Assembly: GCA_009914755.4 (NCBI GenBank)
Contig: CP068257.2
Span: forward strand, 5,792,001-5,856,000
Origin: the human T2T-CHM13v2.0 reference genome, Homo sapiens
DNA: 64,000 nt
Reading direction: 5' to 3'
In this document: positions 14,213-40,245 of the stretch, piece by piece
Layout of the letters: each line of letters starts with the position of its first letter
Numbering within the stretch: the stretch's first letter is position 1
Program-made: the position numbers and the translations under genes
Notes under the pieces: generated by a model
The model's input: only the letters and a program-made list of their open reading frames with translations
Told to the model about the DNA's origin: nothing
The model's database searches: none

Positions 14213-15930
14213 GGAAGTAAAATTTCTTATCTTATAGATATAGCATGTTAACATGTTGGTACCTATCCTCCTGAGATGTAAAATTTTACATGGATAGATA
14301 TGTACATTTACAGTTGTACACAAAGAGAAACATATTCTGTAGCCTCTTTGTTTTTCTGCAGTTTCATTCAACACTATCTGGTTTATATGGGTGATTACAT
14401 ATATAATGCTAGGATTAAGGTTCTTCTCTATAACTTTGAAACTTCCTTGATTATCAACCCTTGGTATATTCTTAGAATAGGATTTTATTTTAGAATTAAG
14501 ATCCTTGTTTCAGGACTCTAGACTGTTAACACACAGAGCCAATAATTATTCAGAATGGTTGGGTTAGTTCACATTCCCACAGAGGAGACATCAAATGTCC
14601 AGGCTGCACAGCCTCATTAACACTAGATTTTCTGGACATTTTATATAGTATTTCATCTGATATAAAAAGTAGAATTCTAATTTGATTATGGTTGTTAATT
14701 TATTTTTACATTTTTAGTCATTATGAAAATGTTTTACTATATGAAAAGCCAGGAAAGGGTTTTTTTTTTAAGGTAGTACTTCAGAAATATTTATGATACT
14801 TAATTTTTAAAAATTAACTCTAAAAGAATCTTGAAATGTCTGTTTAATAAAATAGGACATAAATACTGGTCACATTAGTGAAAAATATTTGTTTAAAATT
14901 AAAATATCTGCAGCAATCCTGTAGATATTAATAAGTTTTTAAAGAATGACATCTTCAAAATATAACTGTTCTAAACTAATATGTCTCCATTAATACATAT
15001 AGATACATATATCTAAATAAATTTGAAGACTTCAAATTCCAGGTACAATATAATTTTTTTCTATCCTTTGATTTGTCATTCAGGATTTTGTAATTTGAAC
15101 AGAAATATTTTGCCCTAACCACATGTCTGTCTTTTCTCTTACTAAAAATATTATTTTATGTAAAATTGTTTTAAAGGTCAGTTAGCACGTTTGAAAAGCA
15201 TCTTGTACAATGTTACATAATATATTGCATATTTGGTTACATTGTTTTAACTGTGTAAATATGGTTTAAATCTGTGATGCTCTTTAGTGCTGATCATGAT
15301 GCAAATCAAATTTATCTGTATAAAAGGCTCCTGTTAATTTTTTTTATTATACTTTAAGTTTTAGGGTACATGTGCACAACGTGCAGGTTTGCTACATATG
15401 TACACATGTGCCATGTTGGTGTGCTGCACCCATTAACTCCTCATTTAACATTAGGTATATCTCCTAATGCTATCCCTACCCCCTCCACCCACCCCACAAC
15501 AGTCCCCGGTGTGTGATGTTCCCCTTCCTGTATCCATGTTTCCTCATTGTTCAATTCCCACCTATGAGTGAGAACATGTGGTGTTTGATTTTTTGTCCTT
15601 GTGATAGTTTGCTGAGAATGATGGTTTCCAGCTTCATCCATGTCCCTACAAAGGACATGAACTCATCATTTTTTATGGCTGCATGGTATTCCATGGTGTA
15701 TATGTGTCACATTTTCTTAATCCAGTCTATCATTGTTGGACATTTGGGTTGGTTCCAAGTCTTTGCTATTGTGAATACTGCCACAATAAACATACGTGTG
15801 CATGTGTCTTTAGAGCAGCATGATTTATAATCCTTTGGGTATATACCCAGTAATGGGATGGCTGGGTCAAATGGTATTTCTAGTTCTAGATCCCTGAGGA
15901 ATCACCACACTGACTTCCACAATGGTTGAA

Positions 15931-16599
<669 letters not shown>

Positions 16600-16602
16600 C
16601 TA

Positions 16603-16707
<105 letters not shown>

Positions 16708-16909
16708 CTAATACCATGCTGTTTTGGTTACTGTAGCCTTGTAGTATAGTTTGAAGTCAGGTAGCATGATGCCTCCAGCTTTGTTCTTTTGCCTTAGGAT
16801 TGACTTGGCAATGCAGGCTCTTTTTTGGTTCCATATGAACTTTAAAGTAATTTTTTTCCAATTCTGTTAAGAAAGTCTTTGGTAGTTTGATGGAGATGGC
16901 ATTGAATCT

Positions 16910-18347
<1,438 letters not shown>

Positions 18348-18851
18348 CTAAGTTACTTCTTGCCTTCTGTTATCTTTTGAATGTGTTTGTTCTTGCTTCT
18401 CTAGTTCTTTTAATTGTGATGTTAGGATGTCAATTTTAGTTCTTTCATGCTTTCTCTTGTGGGCATTTAGTGCTATAAATTTCCCTCCACACACTGCTTT
18501 GAATGTGTCCCAGAGATACTGGTATGTTGTGTCTTTGTTCTTGTTGGTTTCAAATAACATCTTTATTTCTGCCTTCATTTCCTTATGTACCCAGTAGTCA
18601 TTCAGGAGCAGGTTGTTCAGTTTCCATGTAGTTGAGTGGTCTTGAGTGAGTTTTTAAATCCTGAGTTGTAGTTTGATTGCACTGTGTTCCGAGAGACAGT
18701 TTGTTATACTTTCTGTTCTTTTACATTTGCTAAGGAGTGCTTTACTTCCAACTATGTGCTCAATTTTGGAATAGGTGTGGTGTGGTGCTGAAAAGAATAC
18801 ATATTCTGTTGATTTGGGGTACAGAGTTCTGTAGATGTCTATTAGGTCTGC

Positions 18852-19370
18852 TTAGTGCAGAGCTGAGTTCAATTCCTGTATATCCTTGTTAACTTTCTGT
18901 CTCGTTGATCTGTCTAATGTTGACAGTGGGGTGTTAAAGTCTCCCATTATTATTGTGTGGGAGTCTAAATCACTTTGTAGGTCACTAAGGACTTGCTTTA
19001 TGAATCTGGGTGCTTCTGTATTGTGTGCATATATATTTAGGATAGTTAGTTCTTGTTGAATTGATCCCTTTACCATTATGTAATGGCCTTCTTTGTCTCT
19101 TTTGATCTTTGTTGGTTTAAAGTCTGTTTTATCCGAGACTAGGATTGCAACCCCTGCCTTTTTTTGTTTTCCATTTGCTTGGTAGATCTTCCTCCATCCC
19201 TTTATTTTGAGCCTATGTGTGTCTCTGCACGTGAGATGGGTTTCCTGGATACAGCACACTGATGGGTCTTGACTCTTTATCCAATTTGCCAGTCTGCACC
19301 TTTTAATTGGAGCATTTAACCCATTTACATTTAAGGTTAGTATTGTTATGTGTGAACTTGATCCTGTCAT
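18852..19370 (-). pseudogene. L1 ORF2p endonuclease-domain remnant
   Basis: The translation MTGSSSHITILTLNVNGLNAPIKRCRLANWIKSQDPSVCCIQETHL...ILVSDKTDFKPTKIKRDKEGHYIMVKGSIQQELTILNIYAHNTEAPRFIKQVL matches the L1 ORF2 N-terminal APE-like endonuclease and is terminated prematurely. Confidence 0.9.
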
Positions 19371-19658
19371 TATGACGTTAGCTGGTTATTTTCCTCGTTA
19401 GTTTATGCAGTTTCTTCCTAGCCTTGATGGTCTTTACAATTTGGCATGGTTTTACAGTGGCTGGTACCAGTTGTTCCTTTCCATGTTTAGTGCTTCCTTC
19501 AGGAGATCTTTTAGGGCAGGCCTGGTGGTGACAAAATCTCTCAGCATTTGCTTGTCTGTGGAGCATATTATTTCTCCCTCACTTATGAAGGTTAGTTTGG
19601 CTGGATATGAAATTCTGGGTTGAAAATTCTTTCCTTTAAGAATGTTGAATATTGGCCC

Positions 19659-20267
19659 CTACTCTCTTCTGGCTTGTAGAGTTTCTGCAGAGAGATCAGC
19701 AGTTAGTCTGATGGGCTTCCTTTTGTGGGTAACCCGACCTTTCTCTCTGGCTGCCTTTAAAATCTTTTCTTTCATTTCAACTTTGGTGAATCTGACAATT
19801 ATGTGTCTTGGAATTGCTCTTCTCGAGGAGTATCTTTGTGGCATTCTCTGTATTTCCTGAATGTGAATGTTGGCCTGCCTTGCTAGATTGGGGAAGTTCT
19901 CCTGGATAATATCCTGCAGAGTGTTTTCCAACTTGGTTCCATTCTCCCCGTCACATTCAGGTAAACCAAATAGACGTAGATTTGTTCTATTGACATAGTC
20001 CCATATTTCTTGGAGGCTTTGTTCATTTCTTTTTATTCTTTTTTCTCTAAACTTCTCTTCATGCTTCATTTCATTCATTTCATCTTCCATCGCTGATACC
20101 CTTTCTTCCCGTTGATCACATCGGTTACTGAGGCTTATGCATTTGTCGTGTAGTTCTCGTGCCATGGTTTTCAGCTCCATCAGGTCCTTTAAGGACTTCT
20201 CCACATTGGTTATTCTAGTTATCCATTCGTCTAATTTTTTTTTCAAAGTTTTTAACTTCTTTGCCAT
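19659..20267 (-). pseudogene. L1 ORF1p remnant (C-terminal ~200 aa in frame; N-terminal part frameshifted)
   Basis: The translation MAKKLKTLKKKLDEWITRITNVEKSLKDLMELKTMARELHDKCISLSNRCDQ...RFTKVEMKEKILKAAREKGRVTHKRKPIRLTADLSAETLQARRE is typical L1 ORF1p. The ORF1 ATG context atggggaaaaaaagagcagaaaaactgg lies upstream at about 20451 in another frame. Confidence 0.9.
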
Positions 20268-21029
20268 TGGTTCGAACTTCCTCCTTTAGCTCGGAGTACT
20301 TTGATCTTCTGAAGTCTTCCTCTCTCAACTCGTCAAAGTCATTCTCCGTCCAGCTTTGTTCCATTGCTGATGAGGAGTTGCATTCCTTTGGAGGAGGATA
20401 GGCACTCTGATTTTTAGAGTTTCCAGTTTTTCTGCTCTTTTTTTCCCCATCTTTGTGGTTTTATCTACCTTTGGTCCTTGATGATGGTGACATACAGATG
20501 GGGTTTTGGTGTGGATGTCCTTTCTGTTTGTTAGTTTTCCTTCTAACAGTCAGGATCCTCAGCTGCAGGTCTGTTGGAGTTTACTGGAGGTCTCCTCCAG
20601 ACACTATTTGCCTGGGGGGTATCAGCAGTGGTGGCTGCAGAACAGTGGATATTGGTGAACTGCAAATGCTGCTGCCTGATCGTTCCTCTGGAGGTTTTGT
20701 CTCAGAGGGGTACCCGGCCATGTGAGGTGTCAGTCTGTGCCTACTGGGGGGTGCCTCCCTGTTAGGCTACTCGGGGTTCAGGGACCCACTAGGTGGGGGT
20801 TGTCTGCCCGTTCTCAGATCTCAAGCTGCGTGCTGGGAGAACCACTATTCTCTTCAAAGCTGTCAGACAGGGACATTTAAGTCTGCAGAGGTTATTGCTG
20901 TCTTTTGTTGGTCTGTGCCCTGCCCCCCGAGGTGGAGCCTACAGAGGCAGGCTGTCCTCCTTGAGCTGTGGTGGGCTCCACCCAGTTCGAACTTCCTGGC
21001 TGCTTTGTTTACTTACTCAAGCCCGAGCA

Positions 21030-31671: not shown

Positions 31672-33465
31672 CTGACTCTCACAATAAGGATCTCAATTGC
31701 TTCAAAGAGAATAAAACACCTAGAAATCCAACTTAAAAGGGATGTGAAGGACCTCTTCAAGGAAAACTACAAACCACTGCTCAATGAAATAAGATACAAA
31801 CAAATGTAAGAACCTTTCATGTTCATGGGTAGGAAGAATCCATATTGTGAAAATGGCCATACTGCCCAAGGTAATTTATAGATTCAATGCCATCCCCATC
31901 AAGCAACCAATGACTTTCTTCACAGAATTGGAAAAAACTACTTTAAAGTTCATATGGAACCAAAAAAGAGCCTGCATTGCCAAGTCAATCCTAAGGCAAA
32001 AGAACAAAGCTGGAGGTACTACGCTGCCTGACTTCAAACTATACTACAAGGTTACAGTGACCAAAACAGCATGGTACTGGTACCAAAAGAGAGATAGAGG
32101 CCAATGGAACAGAACAGAGCCCTCAGAAATAATGCCACATGTCTACAGCTATCTGATATTTGACAAACTTGACAGAAACAAGAACTAGGGAAAGGATTCC
32201 CTATTTAATAAATGGCGCTGGGAAAACTGGCTAGCCATATGTAGAAAGCTGAAACTGGATCCCTTCCTTACACCTTATACAAAAATTAATTCAAGATGGA
32301 TTAAAGACTTACATGTTAGACCTAAAACCATAAAAACCTTGGAAAAAAAACTAGGCAATACCATTCAGGACATAAGCATGGGCAGGGACTTCATGTCTAA
32401 AACACCAAAAGCAATGGCAACAAAAGCCAAAATTGACAAATGGGATCTAATTAAACTAAAGAGCTTCTGCACAGCCAAAGAAAGCACCATCAGAGTGAAC
32501 AGGCAACCTACAGAATGGGAGAAAAGTTTTGCAATCTACTCATCTGACAAAGGACAAATATCCAGAATCTACAATGAACTCCAACAAATTTACTAGAAAA
32601 AAGCAACCCCATCAAAAAGTGGGCGAAGGATATGAACAGACACTTCTCAAAAGAAGACATTTATGCAGCCAAAAAACACATGAAAAAATGCTCATCATCA
32701 CTGGCCATCAGAGAAATGCAAATCAAAACCACAATGAGATACCACCTCACACCAGTTAGAATGGCGATCATAAAAAGTCAGGAAACAACAGGTGCTGGAG
32801 AGGATGTGGAGAAATAGGAACACTTTTACACTGTTGATGGGACTGTAAACTAGTTCAAACATTGTGGAAGTCGGTGTGGCGATTCCTCAGGGATCTAGAA
32901 CTAGAAATACCATTTGATCCAGCCATCCCATTACTGGGTATATACCCAAAGGATTATAAATCATGCTGCTCTAAAGACACATGGACACGTATGTTTATTG
33001 TGGCACTATTCACAATAGCAAAGACTTGGAACCAACCCAAATGTCCAACAATGATAGACTGGATTAAGAAAATGTGGCACATATACACCATGGAATCCTA
33101 TGCAGCCATAAAAAATGATGAGTTTATGTCCTTTGTAGGGATATGGATGAAGCTGGAAACCATCATTCTCAGCAAACTATCACAAGGACAAAAAACCAAA
33201 CACCACATGTTCTCACTCATAGGTGGGAATTGAACAATGAGAACACATGGACACAGGAAGGGTAACATCACACACTGGGGACTGTTGTAGGGTGGGGGGA
33301 AGGGGGAGGGATAGCATTAGAAGATATACCTAATGTTAAATGACGAGTTAATGGTTGCAGCACGACAGCATGGCACATGTATACATATGTAACAAACGTG
33401 CACGTTCTGCACGTGTACCCTAAAACTTAATGTATAATAATAATAATTAAAAAAAATGAAAACAT
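31672..33465 (+). mobile_element. 5'-truncated L1 (L1PA-like), about 1.8 kb, covering the ORF2 RT/C-terminal region through the 3'UTR and A-rich tail
   Basis: It is the reverse complement of the ORF2 region of the full-length L1 at 15338-21468, for example gggatgtgaaggacctcttcaaggaaaactacaaaccactgctcaatgaaataa. Plus-strand ORF pieces 31847-32188, 32339-32596, 32632-32817 and 32862-33233 translate as ORF2p, ending ...TIILSKLSQGQKTKHHMFSLIGGN. The 3' end reads ...cctaaaacttaatgtataataataataattaaaaaaaa. Confidence 0.95.
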
Positions 33466-35533
33466 ATGTCCACACACACAAAAAAAAGAAAAAAATAAGG
33501 ATCTCAAAGAGGTCAATATGTATATAATCTATTCTTAAAAAAAAATTTTCTCCAATTGTTTATTGAAATATCACACAGGCTCTGACTTTGTTTATACCCT
33601 TAAAAACTATGTAGATTGATGTGTAGCTTTTGTAAAGTGAAAGCTCAGAATGTCTACTCTGTTCTGGTACCACTTTAGTTTAATTGTTGGGAAATATTTA
33701 ATAAAAATGAATTACTAAACAAATGGAAAATTTGAACTTTGCATACTAAATTTTTACTTCATATTATCAACTCTTGAAAAATAAGTGTGTATATTAGAAA
33801 TGACACTCATTTGACTATACCATAATATATTTCAGACATTTTATCTTCAGCTACAGAATTTCTCCATCCTTTGAATTATGTTAGAGGGCTTTAGTTGGTC
33901 AGTATTGGTGATTCGCCTCCACTAATTCACAACTCTATTATCTTACCCCCGGGGATGCATTTCCATAGTTCTGCCTTGTAATGAGTGTCATTTTTTCCTT
34001 CTGTTTTGTTGACTGCCATTCAAATAGTTTTGGCTTTATCAGAGATTTTCACTTTATTGTCACCCCCTCATTTTTTTAACTTCTCATAATTTACTGTATT
34101 ATATCTGCCTGGGCTTTTGGTTCCTTTACAGATTTGTTTCACTTTATTTTTAGCTTATGATACTTCTAAAGTCTGTACCCTTTTAATTTTCACTTGCTTC
34201 ATCGTCACATTCTTGTGTTTTGTTTTCATTTCAAAATACCAGAAAGTAGGATGTCTCAGCATCTTGGTGAGTGGAATAGTTTATTTATAATCCAAAAAAA
34301 TCCCCCATACTTTTTGTGAGCTATCTGCTTCTAAGTAAAAATTTTATATATAAATTCTTTAAAAAAAATCTTAAACTTCTGAGGGATTGAATGAGATTTT
34401 AAAAATCATTCTATACAACAATGGGTGCAAAATTTGTATTCCTCTACTCGAGAAATCATGAACATTTGTTATTAGTTTACTAACATCTAAATATTAATGT
34501 ATTCAATTATATATTATTAAAACACGATTAAGCTTAAGAGGTGGAAAAGTATAAAACAAACAAGTGTATAATCTACCTTTATTAATATGAAACATCTTTT
34601 TCTCTCCTGAAAATAAAGATTAACCAGGGGTGTGCTGGGGCGGGAGGGGGTGTGTTGGAGGGAGAAAAGCCATGATTTGCCAATTTCAGCACAAAACTGA
34701 AAATGGTTATTAATCTTTACTAGCTACAGATATCTTTTAACATATATTGAAATCTATGACCCTTAAAAGGAAACATATATACAGATTTTGACAAAACTTT
34801 GCAGTTCCACTCATGGATCCTTGTATAAGAATCCCTTTTATATGTGTGTTTGCAATTTAAAGAGTTCAGACTTTATGATTCACAGGTGACAATTAATGAT
34901 TTAAAATCATAACTTAGGCTTTTATAATTTGGGAGTCAGGTGTTTAACAGCTGTAGTAGTAACTGCTTCTTCTCAGAGAAACTTAGGAGCTAAGACCAGG
35001 GAAATGTCCCTTGGTGTGCAACACACCTCTTCTTTCTGAACATATCGTATAAGAAGCTAACTTTGTCTCAAAGTTTATATGACTTTTGCATTTGCAGTTA
35101 CTAGCTATTTTCTTTTGGAACTGTTGGACTTGGAGAACTTTCCCTCTACCCTCTGAAGGTATGATAACTGAGTCTATTGAATAAATGGATAACAGGCATG
35201 TCAAAAGAAGAAAATGTGTACACATTTATTACACGCATGGGGGAATCACAGGAAAGAAAAGTGGAATCAAAAACAAAACAAAACAAACAAAACACCACCA
35301 AGAAAAAACCCCAGTGAGATTTAGGAGCTTATAGGGAAGGCAGGAGGAAGAATGTAGGAAACTTAGGGGAGAGCAAATGACTTTTGTGAAAGATGACCAG
35401 ACCCTTAGGAGAATAGATGATAGTTTGTGGCAGTCTGTCTTAGTGTGGTATGGACCCTTAGTCTTGTCTCCTGTGATATGAGGAGTCAATTTTCCCTGGC
35501 TGATGAAACTCCTAGGAAGGAGATGAATGTCTT

Positions 35534-35685
35534 TGTGCTGACAAGACAGTATCTTGAAGTTTTGATTTCCAATTCAGTTCTAAATCTGCAGTGTATAAAA
35601 ATCTCATCATGCTTTGGATGTTATGGTAGATAAATGGTATCTTTACAAAGATACATTCATTCTGGTATTGAAAATTCCTTTTGGA
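35534..35685 (+). repeat. Copy A of a ~150 bp dispersed direct duplicate (about 92 percent identical to 36276-36420)
   Basis: ctttgtgctgacaagacagtatcttgaagttttgatttccaattcagttctaaatctgcagtgtataaaaatctcatcatgctttggatgttatggtagataaatggtatctttacaaagatacattcattctggtattgaaaattcc. Confidence 0.8.
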
Positions 35686-36275
35686 GGATCTCTCTTGAGG
35701 AACGTAAAGGGAGTGCAGAGAAAGCATGTCCCGCATTTGTTGTTTTTCAAATATTTTCAGTTCGATGTAATCGGTACACCAAAGCAATCCATTTAGGACT
35801 GGCATTTCCTGAACACCTTCAGAACTCTTTTTATCCCATGTTATTTCTATGAGATCACGTGATTTAAGAACAACTTTTACTTGCCACTTACATATATATT
35901 GAAAAGGCAAACTTTCCTTTCGTAGTTTGCTAATTTTGGCAAAGTACTTTAACAAAAGTTAAATTAAATGAGTAAGTGAAATTTTCTGTTCTATTGTTTT
36001 GAAAACAATTCTAGAAACTGTCCTTGTAAGAACAGCAAAAAGAGAAAAAGATAATTCTCAACTGCAGCTTCAACCATTCTTTGCTTAACAATGAGTTAAT
36101 TAAAAGGCAAAACTCTATTTCAGGTTTATATGTGTCAATTGCTTGATTAGAAAGTAAATTATTTACCACATATAATATGGTGTCAAAAAACTTATAATAA
36201 AATTACTTTGATTTTATTGCTTATAAGTTTGTGAATTTAAATCTCAACTTACAGTGATAAATTTATTTGCTTTGT

Positions 36276-36420
36276 GCTGACAAGACAGTATCTTGAAGTT
36301 TTGTTTTCCAACTCAGTTCTAAATCTGCAGTGTATCAAAATCTCCTCATTATGCTTTGGATGTTATGGTACATAAATGGTATCTTCACAAAGATACATTC
36401 ATTCTGGTACTGAAAGTGCC
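36276..36420 (+). repeat. Copy B of the ~150 bp dispersed direct duplicate
   Basis: ctttgtgctgacaagacagtatcttgaagttttgttttccaactcagttctaaatctgcagtgtatcaaaatctcctcattatgctttggatgttatggtacataaatggtatcttcacaaagatacattcattctggtactgaaagtgcc. Confidence 0.8.
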
Positions 36421-36840
36421 TACTTAAAATTCTGCATGAACAGTTTTATTGAAAAAATATGTAGACAAGCCATTAATTATACACAGTGATTTGGAACAAA
36501 TTCTTACAAGAAGCATAGCATGTCTTCCATTAACTGTATACAATTTAAAAAAGTTACTGAAAGTCTTCCTGAAGTTAAACAATAAATCTTTTAAATTTAA
36601 CCACTGTGCTCCGTCAAAGGTAATTTTTTCTTTATGACACTCACTTAGGGGATACAGTCAGATCTCAGCCTACTTTAAACAACTAGACAGTATTTTTAGT
36701 GCACTTTTCTGTTTGTTAAAAAGCTAGTTGTCAAAGTTGGCACCAGAGTTGGGGAGTTTTAAGAGGTTTAGAAGCCTAGCCATGAATACCCACAACAGTT
36801 ACGGAGGCAAAGGAAATAGGCCTTTGAAAAGAAGGTAATG

Positions 36841-36932
36841 CCCTCTCCCTCTCCCTCTCCCTCTCCCCACGGTCTCCCTCTCTCTCTCTTTCCACGGTCT
36901 CCCTCTCCCTCTCTTTCCACGGTCTCCCTCTG
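36841..36932 (+). repeat. SVA 5' (CCCTCT)n hexamer repeat
   Basis: ccctctccctctccctctccctctccccacggtctccctctctctctctttccacggtctccctctccctctctttccacggtctccctc. Confidence 0.9.
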
Positions 36933-37289
36933 ATGCCCAGCCGAAGCTGGACTGTACTGCTGCCATCTTGGCTCACTGCAACCTCCCTGCCTGATTCTCC
37001 TGCCTCAGCCTGCTGAGTGCCTGCAATTGCAGGCGTGCGCCGCCACTTCTGACTGGTTTTCTTATTTTTTTGGTGGAGACGGGGTTTCGCTGTGTTGGCC
37101 GGGCTGGTCTCCAGCTCCTAACCGCGAGTGATCCGCCAGCCTCGGCCTCCCGAGGTGCCGGGATTGCAGACAGAGTCTCGTTCACTCAGTGCTCAATGGT
37201 GCCCAGGCTGGAGTGCAGTGGCGTGATCTCTGCTCGCTACAACCTCCACCTTCCAGCTGCCTGACTTGGCCGCCCAATGTGCCGAGATT

Positions 37290-37870
37290 GCAGCCTCTGC
37301 CCGGCCGCCACCCCGTCTGGGAAGTGAGGAGCGTCTGCCTGGCCGCCCATCGTCTGGGATGTGAGGAGCCCCTCTGCCTGGCTGCCCAGTCTGGAAAGTG
37401 AGGAGCATCTCTGCCCGGCCGGCATCCCATCTAGGAAGTGAGGAGCACCTCTTCCCGGGTGCCATCCCATCTAGGAAGTGAGGAGCGTCTCTGCCTGGCC
37501 ACCCATAGTCTGAGATGTGGGGAGCGCCTCTGCCCTGCCGCCCCGTCTGGGATGTGAGGAGCCCCTCTGCCCGGCCGCCCATCGTCCGAGATGTGGGGAG
37601 CACCTCTGCCCGGCCGCGACCCCGTCTGGGAGGTGAGGAGCGTCTCTGCCCGGCCGCCCCATCTGAGAAGTGAGGAGCGTCTCCGCTCGGCAGCCACCCC
37701 GTCCGGGAGGGAGGTGGGGGTCAGCCCACGCCCAGCCAGCTGCCCCGTCCGGGAGGGAGGTGGGGGGTCAGCCCCCGCCCGGCCAGCTGCCCCGTCCATT
37801 AGGTGAGGGGTGCCTCTGCCCAGCCGCCCCTACTGGGAAGTGAGGAGCCCCTCTGCCCGGCCACCACCCC
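37290..37870 (+). repeat. SVA VNTR region (GC-rich tandem units of about 35-50 bp)
   Basis: Units repeat of the form cc(c)gtctgggaagtgaggagcgtctgcctggccgcccatcgtctgggatgtgaggagcccctctgcc. The apparent minus-strand ORFs here translate to Pro/Gly/Arg-rich low-complexity peptide and are artefacts. Confidence 0.88.
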
Positions 37871-39607
37871 GTCTGGGAGGTGTACCCAACAGCTCATTGA
37901 GAACAGGCCATCATGACAATGGCGGTTTTGTGGAATAGAAAAGGGGGAAAGGTGGGGAAAAGATTGAGAAATCAGATGGTCGCTGTGTCTGTGTAGAAAG
38001 AAGTAGACATGGGAGACTTTTCATTTTGTTCTGTACTAAGAAAAATTCTTCTGCCTTGTGATCCTGTTGATCTATGACCTTACCCCCAACGCTGTGCTCT
38101 CTGAAACATGTGCTGTGTCCACTCAGGGTTAAATGGATTAAGGGTGGTGCAAGATGTGCTTTGTTAAACAGATGCTTGAAGGCAGCATGCTCGTTAAGAG
38201 TCATCACCACTCCCTAATCTCAAGTACCCAGGGACACAAACACTGCGGAAGGCCGCAGGGTCCTCTGCCTAGGAAAACCAGAGACCTTTGTTCACTTGTT
38301 TATCTGCTGACCTTCCCTCCACTATTGTCCTATGACCCTGCCAAATCCCCCTCTGCGAGAACCACCCAAGAATGATCAATTAAAAAAAAAAAGCTAGTTG
38401 TCAAGAATAAGTTGCTCAAATATCTTTCTCAATTACTTTTTATTTTGTTTTGTAATTATTATTCTATTTTGGTTTTCCTTTAGAATTGTGAAATATCTTG
38501 AATCAGAAATTGCAGAGAATATATAAATGTGTAGGAATGTACTCTGCAATCAAACTAGATCTCGAAAGTGTTTTGTTGTAGTTTATACCTTGAATTCGAA
38601 GGCCATTCTATACAAGGCACTTGAAAAATTTTCAAGCTCATATATTTCATAATAGTACAGAATTTATTGTTCTTTTATTTGCAAGGAGATAGACCAGATA
38701 AAATATCACTTTATTTTTTACAGTGTTGACTTTGATATTCTAAACTTGTCAGTTTATACAGATTAATGAAGACTCCGTACATGTAAAATTCACTATAATT
38801 TTTTTTCTGGTATGAGAATATAAACAAATAGTAACTACATAACCAAACAGGTAAAGTAAAAATATACAATAGCTTGACAAAAAAAAAAAAAAAGAAGAAG
38901 AAAAAAGAAACCCCTATACATTACTTAACATTGTAAATCTCTGAGGACGAAATTGGATTCAAAAGAAACATTTCTCGTGGGCAGGGAAAGGGCTAAAAAT
39001 CTAAAGTATATAATAAGTATATTCCTCATTGCTATAAAATATATGACCAGCATGACATTTCAATACATGTTCAAGTTTTCTGAAGAAAGTTCTAGGATAA
39101 TAGGATTTCAACTTTTGATTCTACAGATATCATTCTTGTGATTGGTATGGGAGAATCATCCTCTCCATGTATTAGTGGATTCAAATGAAAAAAAAATCAG
39201 GCAGCTAGTTCCTTTCCAAGAAGCCTTAGAGATTGTTGTACATAAAAATAGCCATATTTCTGATTCAAATTTTAATTAGAGAATTCTCTTTATTCCCTCT
39301 TCAGCATAAAATTATGCACTGGCACTCTGCTCTGCAGACAAGTAAAACTTCTTACCTGCTATAATTTGAGATACCCAAGACTCAGAACATATTAACTCCT
39401 AGCTGAAAGTCCCAAAAACTTCTCAGGACAAAAAAAACAAAAAGTTAAATACACAGAGATAGAGTATAAAACAGTGGTTACCAGGGGCTGGGGGTGAGAA
39501 GAGAAAATGGAGATAGAGAATTCAAAAGATGCAAAGTTGCAGATATGTAGAATTAACAAGTTGAGGGATCTAATGTACAACATGAGGACTGTAGGTATTA
39601 ATATTTA

Positions 39608-40030
<423 letters not shown>

Positions 40031-40245
40031 CACTCCACTCCACTCCACTCCATTCCATTTCATTCCATTCCATTCCATTCCATTCCATTCCATTCCATCC
40101 CATCCCATTCCATTCCACTCCATTCCATTCCATCCCATTCCATTCCACTCCCTTCCACTCTATTCCACTCCATTCCACTCTACTCCAGTCCACTACACTC
40201 CATTCTATTCCATTCCATTTCATTCCAATCTATTCCATTCCATTC

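What the first reader, a model, noticed from the sequence alone, without database searches (positions are those of the whole stretch)
36718..38403. SVA insertion with a clear 16 bp TSD and about 107 bp of non-SVA sequence upstream of the CCCTCT hexamer, a candidate 5' transduction
aaaagctagttgtcaa occurs at 36718-36733 and again right after the SVA polyA at 38388-38403. The canonical SVA 5' hexamer starts only at 36841. The 107 bp at 36734-36840 therefore lies inside the TSD-bounded insertion but is not SVA sequence. The usual explanation is transcription of the source SVA starting from an upstream promoter, a known SVA behaviour. If so, this 107 bp tags the source locus.
Basis: partly seen in the sequence, partly recalled or inferred. 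Interest (0 to 1): 0.55.

Follow-up and report, generated by a model that had tools for sequence, protein, structure and literature searches.

The report
SVA insertion carrying a 5' transduction
This is an ordinary full-length SVA retrotransposon that carried along 106 bases of its source locus, a piece of an old endogenous retrovirus, when it jumped; a second locus with the same bases directly upstream of another SVA supports this well-known behaviour.

Summary
An exact 17-nt target-site duplication (AAAAAGCTAGTTGTCAA, 36718-36734 and 38388-38404) encloses a full-length SVA (36841-38381, plus a short A-tail) and 106 nt of non-SVA sequence (36735-36840). The target is a consensus L1 endonuclease site (TTTTT/AA on the bottom strand).

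One human-derived metagenome contig (L005) has the same 106 nt (104/106) directly abutting an SVA hexamer, with a different upstream flank. In L005 the 106 nt runs colinearly into a gammaretrovirus-like endogenous retrovirus. Two SVA-free copies of that retrovirus (L010, L011) carry the segment at 97/106 and continue past the SVA insertion point. The segment is therefore antisense retroviral protease sequence, native to the L005-type locus. It is not an exon; the splice-donor look is chance.

The 5' junction shows 6/7 microhomology, so the segment's start need not mark a transcription start site.

The whole locus (flank, duplication, 106 nt and SVA) also occurs in at least five diverged copies (96-99.4% in the flank). 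It lies 1.6 kb from a (CATTC)n satellite array, so it was probably duplicated after insertion.

Not obtained: the source SVA's own duplication, an empty site, the SVA subfamily, or the chromosome. This is an ordinary instance of a known process.

The parts
36716..36717 (+). TT immediately 5' of the duplication. Together with the A-run it gives 5'-TTTTT/AA-3' on the bottom strand, the L1 endonuclease consensus.
   Evidence: Read directly from the sequence. The consensus TTTT/AA for SVA insertions is as stated in PMC3287187.
36718..36734 (+). 5' copy of the target-site duplication, AAAAAGCTAGTTGTCAA (17 nt).
36735..36840 (+). 5'-transduced segment, 106 nt. It is antisense protease-coding sequence of a gammaretrovirus-like ERV. 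It is 104/106 identical to L005 and 97/106 to the SVA-free ERV copies L010 and L011.
36841..36931 (+). SVA (CCCTCT)n hexamer region, interrupted by CCACGGTCT units.
   Evidence: TRF; sequence.
36932..37292 (+). SVA Alu-like region. About 36922-37169 matches the reverse complement of a +-oriented Alu at 12300-12559 at 72%. Boundaries are approximate.
   Evidence: The A-run after 12559 is seen in the ORF translation.
37293..37882 (+). SVA GC-rich VNTR. Repeat units are 37-47 nt. TRF arrays cover 37293-37797; the 3' boundary was read by eye.
37883..38381 (+). SVA SINE-R region, about 500 nt. It was assigned by eye from the recalled SVA consensus and was not tested against a repeat library.
   Evidence: own knowledge.
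38382..38387 (+). A-tail. Six A's are unambiguous. The A-run is 11 long (38382-38392) and its last five belong to the duplication.
38388..38404 (+). 3' copy of the target-site duplication, AAAAAGCTAGTTGTCAA.

Best explanation
A full-length SVA had inserted, antisense, into the protease-coding part of a gammaretrovirus-like endogenous retrovirus. This is the L005-type locus.

A transcript that started upstream of that SVA, in the retroviral flank, ran through the SVA and ended at the SVA's own 3' end. The promoter was not identified.

The L1 machinery nicked the target at 5'-TTTTT/AA-3' and primed reverse transcription on the A-tail. It copied the whole SVA plus at least 106 nt of the retroviral flank.

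The 5' end was joined to the target where 6 of 7 bases matched (target TTGTCAA, source TTGTCTA), leaving a 17-nt target-site duplication. The 106 nt are therefore a 5' transduction, possibly cut short at that microhomology.

Later the locus, insertion included, was copied several times by segmental duplication next to a (CATTC)n satellite.

Shown directly: the duplication, the endonuclease site, the SVA anatomy, the foreign origin of the 106 nt, and the second locus with the same junction. Inferred: where the transcript started, the role of the microhomology, that L005 is the source itself rather than a sibling carrying a longer transduction, and that the variant copies are paralogues.
For: - **Duplication and target site.** The 17-nt exact duplication is the only match of 8 nt or more between the junction zones, and it sits at a TT|AAAAA site.
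- **SVA anatomy.** The hexamer starts at 36841, followed by the VNTR. The Alu-like part is antisense to an Alu in the window.
- **Bait search.** The 66-aa minus-strand ORF spanning the junction (36776-36976) retrieved seven protein clusters that carry the peptide coded by the segment.
- **L005.** One of their contigs, L005, has a different upstream flank. Its homology to the window runs from 36728 through the segment, the hexamer and the Alu-like region at 96%. The segment itself is 104/106 identical.
- **Retroviral flank.** The L005 flank encodes, antisense to the SVA, the N-terminus of a MoMLV-like reverse transcriptase (E = 4e-7).
- **SVA-free ERV copies.** L010 and L011 are colinear with the L005 flank plus the segment, and read on past the insertion point (...GAAAAGAAGGTAATG|TGGAGTGGG...). 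Their translation, stitched across one frameshift in L011, matches XMRV protease 3NR6 at E = 3.5e-14. The segment covers the residues just after the active site.
- **Copy-specific variants.** The window and L005 share six states against both other ERV copies.
- **No ERV in the window flanks.** The window's own flanks show no ERV homology beyond shuffled controls.
- **L005 is not a simple chimera.** It has five private variants spread over the segment and the SVA. None is seen in the nine window-type contigs.
- **Literature.** 5' transductions are frequent for SVA and about threefold enriched for ERV sequence (PMC12593883; PMC10681720). Short microhomologies at SVA 5' junctions have been reported (PMC3287187).
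Against: - The second locus rests on one 941-nt contig from a human-contaminated metagenome assembly. Several other contigs of this kind were visibly chimeric inside SVA sequence (L006, L009; probably L003 and L007).
- The 3' end of the L005 SVA, and hence its own target-site duplication, was not recovered.
- No empty site was found; the one search for it returned nothing.
- Two sites (36835 A/G, and C/T in CATCTTGG) group L005 with some window-type copies against the window copy. This requires either reversions or gene conversion.
- There is no extra 5' G and no promoter evidence, so an upstream start is inferred rather than shown.
Confidence: 0.85

Rival explanations
1. The mechanism is the same, but L005 is not the source. 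Both L005 and the window copy descend from a third ERV+SVA locus, and L005 carries a longer 5' transduction of at least 743 nt.
For: L005 shows only 637 nt of ERV upstream of the segment and no contig end-point information. It has five private variants relative to all window-type copies.
Against: This needs an extra, unobserved locus and an unusually long transduction. The ERV sequence in L005 is colinear over protease and reverse transcriptase, as in an ordinary provirus. The conclusion that the 106 nt are a 5' transduction from an ERV-embedded SVA would not change.
Confidence: 0.08
2. Template switch. During reverse transcription the enzyme reached the 5' end of a canonical SVA RNA and jumped onto an unrelated antisense ERV transcript, creating a chimeric retrocopy. 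L005 would then be an assembly chimera joining that ERV copy to a window-type SVA through the shared 106 nt.
For: Template switching has been proposed for some SVA transductions (PMC12593883). Metagenome contigs of this locus are often chimeric within SVA sequence. L005 is the only contig showing the ERV-SVA junction.
Against: The SVA part of L005 carries private variants (a 5-nt deletion and three substitutions), and the segment carries one more. None occurs in any of nine window-type contigs. The junction lies just downstream of an A-rich stretch (TTT|GAAAAGAAGATAATG). That is what an L1-mediated SVA insertion into the ERV would leave as its duplication.
Confidence: 0.05
3. The 106 nt are native to this locus and the 17-nt repeat is coincidental. 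The SVA simply landed next to them.
For: No direct evidence. No empty site was recovered to exclude it.
Against: A 17-nt exact repeat sits exactly at the two ends, with an A-tail and an L1 endonuclease site. The segment is an isolated 106-nt piece of ERV protease sequence, and neither flank shows ERV homology. No alternative duplication bounds the SVA alone. The same segment-hexamer junction exists elsewhere.
Confidence: 0.02

Closest known systems
SVA 5' transduction by read-through from an upstream start site (Damert et al. 2009 and Hancks et al. 2009, as cited in PMC12593883; population surveys PMC10681720 and PMC12593883)
   Same: Non-SVA sequence lies between the 5' duplication and an intact (CCCTCT)n 5' end. 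The same sequence lies directly upstream of another SVA elsewhere. The transduced sequence is ERV-derived, a class reported as about threefold enriched among 5' transductions.
   Different: Only one offspring locus was seen, and it was later multiplied by duplication of the whole locus rather than by further retrotransposition. The start of the transduced segment coincides with a 6/7 microhomology to the target. That is longer than the 1-2 nt patches reported for de novo SVA insertions.
SVA_F1 / MAST2 and other spliced 5' transductions
   Same: Foreign sequence is attached at the 5' end of a mobilised SVA.
   Different: In those elements an exon is spliced into the Alu-like region and replaces the hexamer. 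Here the hexamer and Alu-like region are intact and the junction is colinear genomic sequence. The GGTAATG that looks like a splice donor is plain ERV sequence; it reads GATAATG in L005 and in several paralogues.
L1 5' junction microhomology and 5' truncation
   Same: The end of the insertion coincides with bases shared between the target end and the template.
   Different: Here the truncation, if that is what it is, falls in transduced flank rather than inside the element. The inference rests on one junction (chance about 0.001 for at least 6 of 7 matches with equal base frequencies; a post hoc estimate).

Membership tests
SVA retrotransposon | (CCCTCT)n hexamer array at the 5' end | tested here: met
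   TRF finds a period-6 CCCTCT array at 36841-36913.
SVA retrotransposon | Alu-like region made of antisense Alu fragments | tested here: met
   About 36922-37169 aligns at 72% to the reverse complement of the +-oriented Alu at 12300-12559. The A-run after 12559 is seen.
SVA retrotransposon | GC-rich VNTR | tested here: met
   TRF arrays of period 37/76/156 and 47 cover 37293-37797.
SVA retrotransposon | SINE-R derived from HERV-K10 env/LTR | not tested
   No repeat library was available. 37883-38381 was recognised only from my recollection of the SVA consensus.
SVA retrotransposon | L1-mediated insertion hallmarks: A-tail, duplication of 4-20 nt, TTTT/AA target | tested here: met
   A-run at 38382-38392, a 17-nt duplication, and TT|AAAAA at the 5' edge. 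The criteria are as listed in PMC3287187.
SVA subfamily A-F | Diagnostic SINE-R substitutions | not testable with these tools
   No subfamily consensus sequences were held. Many CpG-type differences and the 1-4% divergence among paralogues suggest an older subfamily; this is inference only.
5' transduction | Non-element sequence inside the duplication, directly joined to the element's 5' end, with no intervening A-tail | tested here: met
   36735-36840 is unique in the window and abuts CCCTCT.
5' transduction | The same sequence directly upstream of another copy of the element at a different locus, colinear with that locus | tested here: met
   L005: 104/106 identical, same junction, ERV flank. 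The SVA-free ERV copies L010 and L011 are colinear across the segment. This rests on a single contig.
5' transduction | The source element has its own duplication that excludes the transduced sequence | not testable with these tools
   The 3' end of the L005 SVA was not recovered. The candidate duplication is (G)AAAAGAAGATAATG.
5' transduction | The empty site lacks both the element and the transduced sequence | tested here: inconclusive
   A search with a flank ORF found no other copy. All seven to nine retrieved copies of the locus are filled.
SVA_F1 (MAST2) / spliced 5' exon-trapping SVAs | Hexamer and most of the Alu-like region replaced by an exon joined at the Alu-like splice acceptor | tested here: not met
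   The hexamer and Alu-like region are intact. The segment is ERV protease antisense sequence, not an exon.

The most novel reading that the evidence does not exclude
The source transcript began well upstream, inside the antisense ERV. The 106-nt transduction was then cut to length by annealing at a 6/7-nt microhomology, not by the transcription start site. The several copies carrying this transduction arose by pericentromeric segmental duplication, not by retrotransposition. If so, this locus is a clean example of how duplication can imitate a '5'-transduction group', in sequence likely absent from older reference assemblies.
Probability: 0.4. Interest if true: 0.25.

Novelty: new member of a known kind. 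Interest (0 to 1): 0.2.

Why it matters
It matters little beyond annotation. The result links one SVA copy beside a satellite array to a probable source SVA embedded in an endogenous retrovirus.

It also gives two practical cautions. A transduced tag can be repeat-derived, so mapping it needs copy-specific variants. And several copies sharing a transduction may be segmental duplicates rather than separate jumps, which would inflate counts of source-element activity.

Tried and rejected
- **Exon idea.** The segment contains ATG...AAG|GTAATG and so looks like a first coding exon with a splice donor. Rejected: it is ERV protease antisense sequence. The G of GGTAATG is A in L005 and in several paralogues.
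- **Target site itself ERV-related.** MAFFT aligned a 10-mer and other bases of the window flank to the ERV. Rejected: local alignment scores of both flanks against L005, L010 and L011 fall within shuffled controls.
- **Search for an empty-site paralogue.** The 73-aa flank ORF of L008 found only itself.
- **Collection scans with a 26-mer from the segment.** The metagenome scan returned only the window-type locus, as a chimeric contig (L009). The viral scan returned nothing.
- **Other reading frames of the segment among retrieved proteins.** None found.
- **Naming the ERV family.** A literature search with nucleocapsid peptide strings gave no hits. Pfam on the L005 ORF gave nothing useful.
- **Damert et al. 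2009.** The catalogue of 5'-transduction groups could not be read.
- **Third protein-database search for the source's 3' junction.** Not run. I judged the chance of success too low for its cost.

Full report
**Observation.** The region was read directly.
That is one base to the right of the stated coordinates.
- The repeat extends to 17 exact bases, AAAAAGCTAGTTGTCAA, at 36718-36734 and 38388-38404. It is the only exact match of 8 nt or more between the two junction zones.
- In the non-satellite 39.8 kb, the other direct repeats of 14 nt or more at 300-5000 nt spacing come from the VNTR, a simple repeat or a local 150-nt duplication, apart from three short AT-rich 14-mers of no evident origin.
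- The two bases before the 5' copy are TT. The bottom strand therefore reads 5'-TTTTT/AA-3', the L1 endonuclease consensus listed for SVA insertions in PMC3287187.
- The 3' copy follows an 11-A run that ends the element.

**Anatomy of the insertion.**
- Tandem Repeats Finder places a CCCTCT array at 36841-36913, and GC-rich arrays of 37-47-nt units at 37293-37797.
- About 36922-37169 aligns to the reverse complement of a +-oriented Alu elsewhere in the window (the A-run of that Alu is visible). This is an antisense Alu-like region.
- I recognise the last 500 nt or so (37883-38381) as SINE-R from memory. No repeat library was available to test this.
- This is a full-length SVA with a short VNTR.
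- Between the 5' duplication and the hexamer lie 106 nt (36735-36840), 44% G+C with one CpG, unique in the window.

**Looking for the segment elsewhere.** No human genome was available, so I used a 66-aa minus-strand ORF spanning the segment/hexamer junction (36776-36976) as bait.
- An exact look-up found the same locus in a Logan contig, 100% identical over 956 nt.
- A similarity search returned 197 SVA 5'-end ORFs. Seven clusters carried the peptide coded by the segment...SFQRPISFASVTVVGIHG.
- I fetched the contigs of these seven clusters and of one further cluster member (compared).
- Seven of these eight (L002, L003, L004, L006, L007, L008, L012), plus one JGI contig (L009), show the window's arrangement: duplication sequence, segment and SVA. 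All except L003, which starts inside the duplication, also show the window's upstream flank. 5'-flank identity is 96-99.4% and the segment is 104-106 of 106 identical.
- Differences of 1-4% are too large for alleles. I infer that these are paralogous copies of the whole locus, made after the insertion. Some contigs are visibly chimeric inside SVA or Alu sequence (L006, L009; probably L003 and L007).

**The second locus.** One contig, L005, is different.
- Its homology to the window begins at 36728. It runs through the segment (104/106), the same segment/hexamer junction and the Alu-like region at 96%.
- Its 637 nt upstream are unrelated to the window.
- That flank encodes, on the strand antisense to the SVA, the N-terminus of a Moloney-MLV-like reverse transcriptase (E = 4e-7).

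**SVA-free copies of the retrovirus.**
- A scan of bacterial genome assemblies with TTGTCWAAGTTGGCACCAGAGTTGGGG hit two short contigs. One is filed under Stenotrophomonas rhizophila (L010) and one under Arthrobacter antarcticus (L011). Both are evidently primate, presumably human, contamination.
- They are SVA-free copies of the same retrovirus family. They are colinear with the L005 flank plus the segment at 87-91% identity.
- They read straight on past the point where L005 has its SVA (...GAAAAGAAGGTAATG|TGGAGTGGGTAGC...) into gag-like sequence with CCHC zinc knuckles.
- A translation stitched across one frameshift in L011 matches XMRV protease 3NR6 at E = 3.5e-14. The segment corresponds to the residues just after the protease active site.
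- The 106 nt are therefore antisense protease-coding sequence of a gammaretrovirus-like ERV. They are native where L005 comes from.
- The window's own flanks have no ERV similarity beyond shuffled controls.
- At six sites the window and L005 share a state that differs from both other ERV copies; the segment is 97/106 identical to each of them. The segment therefore derives from that particular ERV copy.

**Interpretation.**
The mechanism I consider most likely is a transcript that started upstream of an ERV-embedded SVA, ran through it and was retrotransposed by L1.
- 5' transductions are common for SVA: 1389 among 7554 polymorphic insertions in PMC10681720. They are about threefold enriched for ERV sequence (PMC12593883).
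- The splice-donor look of AAG|GTAATG and the short ATG-initiated ORF in the segment are accidents of ERV sequence. L005 and several paralogues read GATAATG.
- The base immediately before the segment in all three ERV copies is part of TTGTCTA. The target duplication ends TTGTCAA. Six of seven matches right at the junction has a chance of about 0.001 with equal base frequencies; this is a post hoc estimate.
- Short microhomologies at SVA and L1 5' junctions are known. I therefore infer that the cDNA extended further into the ERV and was joined at this patch. If so, the start of the segment does not mark the transcription start site. No promoter evidence was obtained.

**Weak points.**
- L005 is one 941-nt contig from a metagenome assembly. 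However, it carries five private variants spread over the segment and the SVA. None occurs in the nine window-type contigs. This argues against a simple assembly chimera.
- I could not recover the 3' end of the L005 SVA. Its own duplication, probably (G)AAAAGAAGATAATG, is therefore unverified.
- L005 could be a sibling with a longer transduction rather than the source itself.
- No empty site was found.
- Two sites group L005 with some paralogues against the window copy. This requires reversions or gene conversion.
- The SVA subfamily, the chromosome, and presence in other apes could not be determined.

**Context and verdict.**
- The SVA's 3' duplication ends about 1.6 kb before a (CATTC)n satellite. 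The satellite starts at 40034, directly after an L1 ORF2 fragment, and fills the rest of the window. That fits a pericentromeric duplicon and the multiple paralogues.
- It is an ordinary example of a well-described process, so the interest is low.
- Its modest value is as an annotated source-offspring pair. It is also a reminder that repeat-derived tags and segmental duplicates complicate the counting of transduction families.

Noticed in passing
window 40034-64000: A continuous (CATTC/TCCAT)n pentamer satellite of HSat2/3 type, at least 24 kb long, with GC skew of -0.75 to -0.9. It begins directly after an L1 ORF2-like fragment at about 39690-40033. The SVA's 3' duplication ends about 1.6 kb before its edge.
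   Followed up: partly
L002, L004, L006, L007, L008, L009, L012 versus window 35857-37535: The whole locus (5' flank, duplication sequence, 106-nt segment and SVA) exists in at least five sequence variants, 96-99.4% identical in the flank. This is best read as paralogous segmental duplicates made after the insertion. The 3' junctions of these copies were not seen.
   Followed up: partly
L010 (NZ_JACWUO010000044.1, Stenotrophomonas rhizophila GN_RF2.1) and L011 (CZJT01000023.1, Arthrobacter antarcticus W2): Short contigs in two bacterial genome assemblies are primate endogenous-retrovirus gag-pro(-pol) sequence. This is eukaryotic, presumably human, contamination in the deposited assemblies.
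   Followed up: partly
window 35531-35679 and 36270-36421: A local direct duplication of about 150 nt at about 92% identity, 740 nt apart, just upstream of the SVA. It is present in the paralogous contigs too. Its origin is unexplained.
   Followed up: no
window about 15930-20270 (- strand) and about 31850-33230 (+ strand): L1 remnants with recognisable ORF1 and ORF2 pieces (endonuclease and reverse-transcriptase-like translations) in the ORF list.
   Followed up: no
L003, L006, L007, L009: Metagenome contigs of this locus switch partway through the SVA or Alu-like region into other SVA or Alu copies. L009 even joins a second SVA in the opposite orientation. These are assembly chimeras, so single short contigs need caution.
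   Followed up: partly
window 36835 and 36971; L005, L006, L008, L012: At two sites (G/A in GGTAATG, and C/T in CATCTTGG) the putative source L005 agrees with some paralogues and not with the window copy. This needs two reversions in the window lineage, parallel changes, or gene conversion.
   Followed up: no
window 38378-38392: The SVA ends ...GATCAATTAAAAAAAAAAA. The canonical AATAAA is not intact, and only six A's are unambiguously tail. An ATTAAA variant runs straight into the A-run.
   Followed up: no
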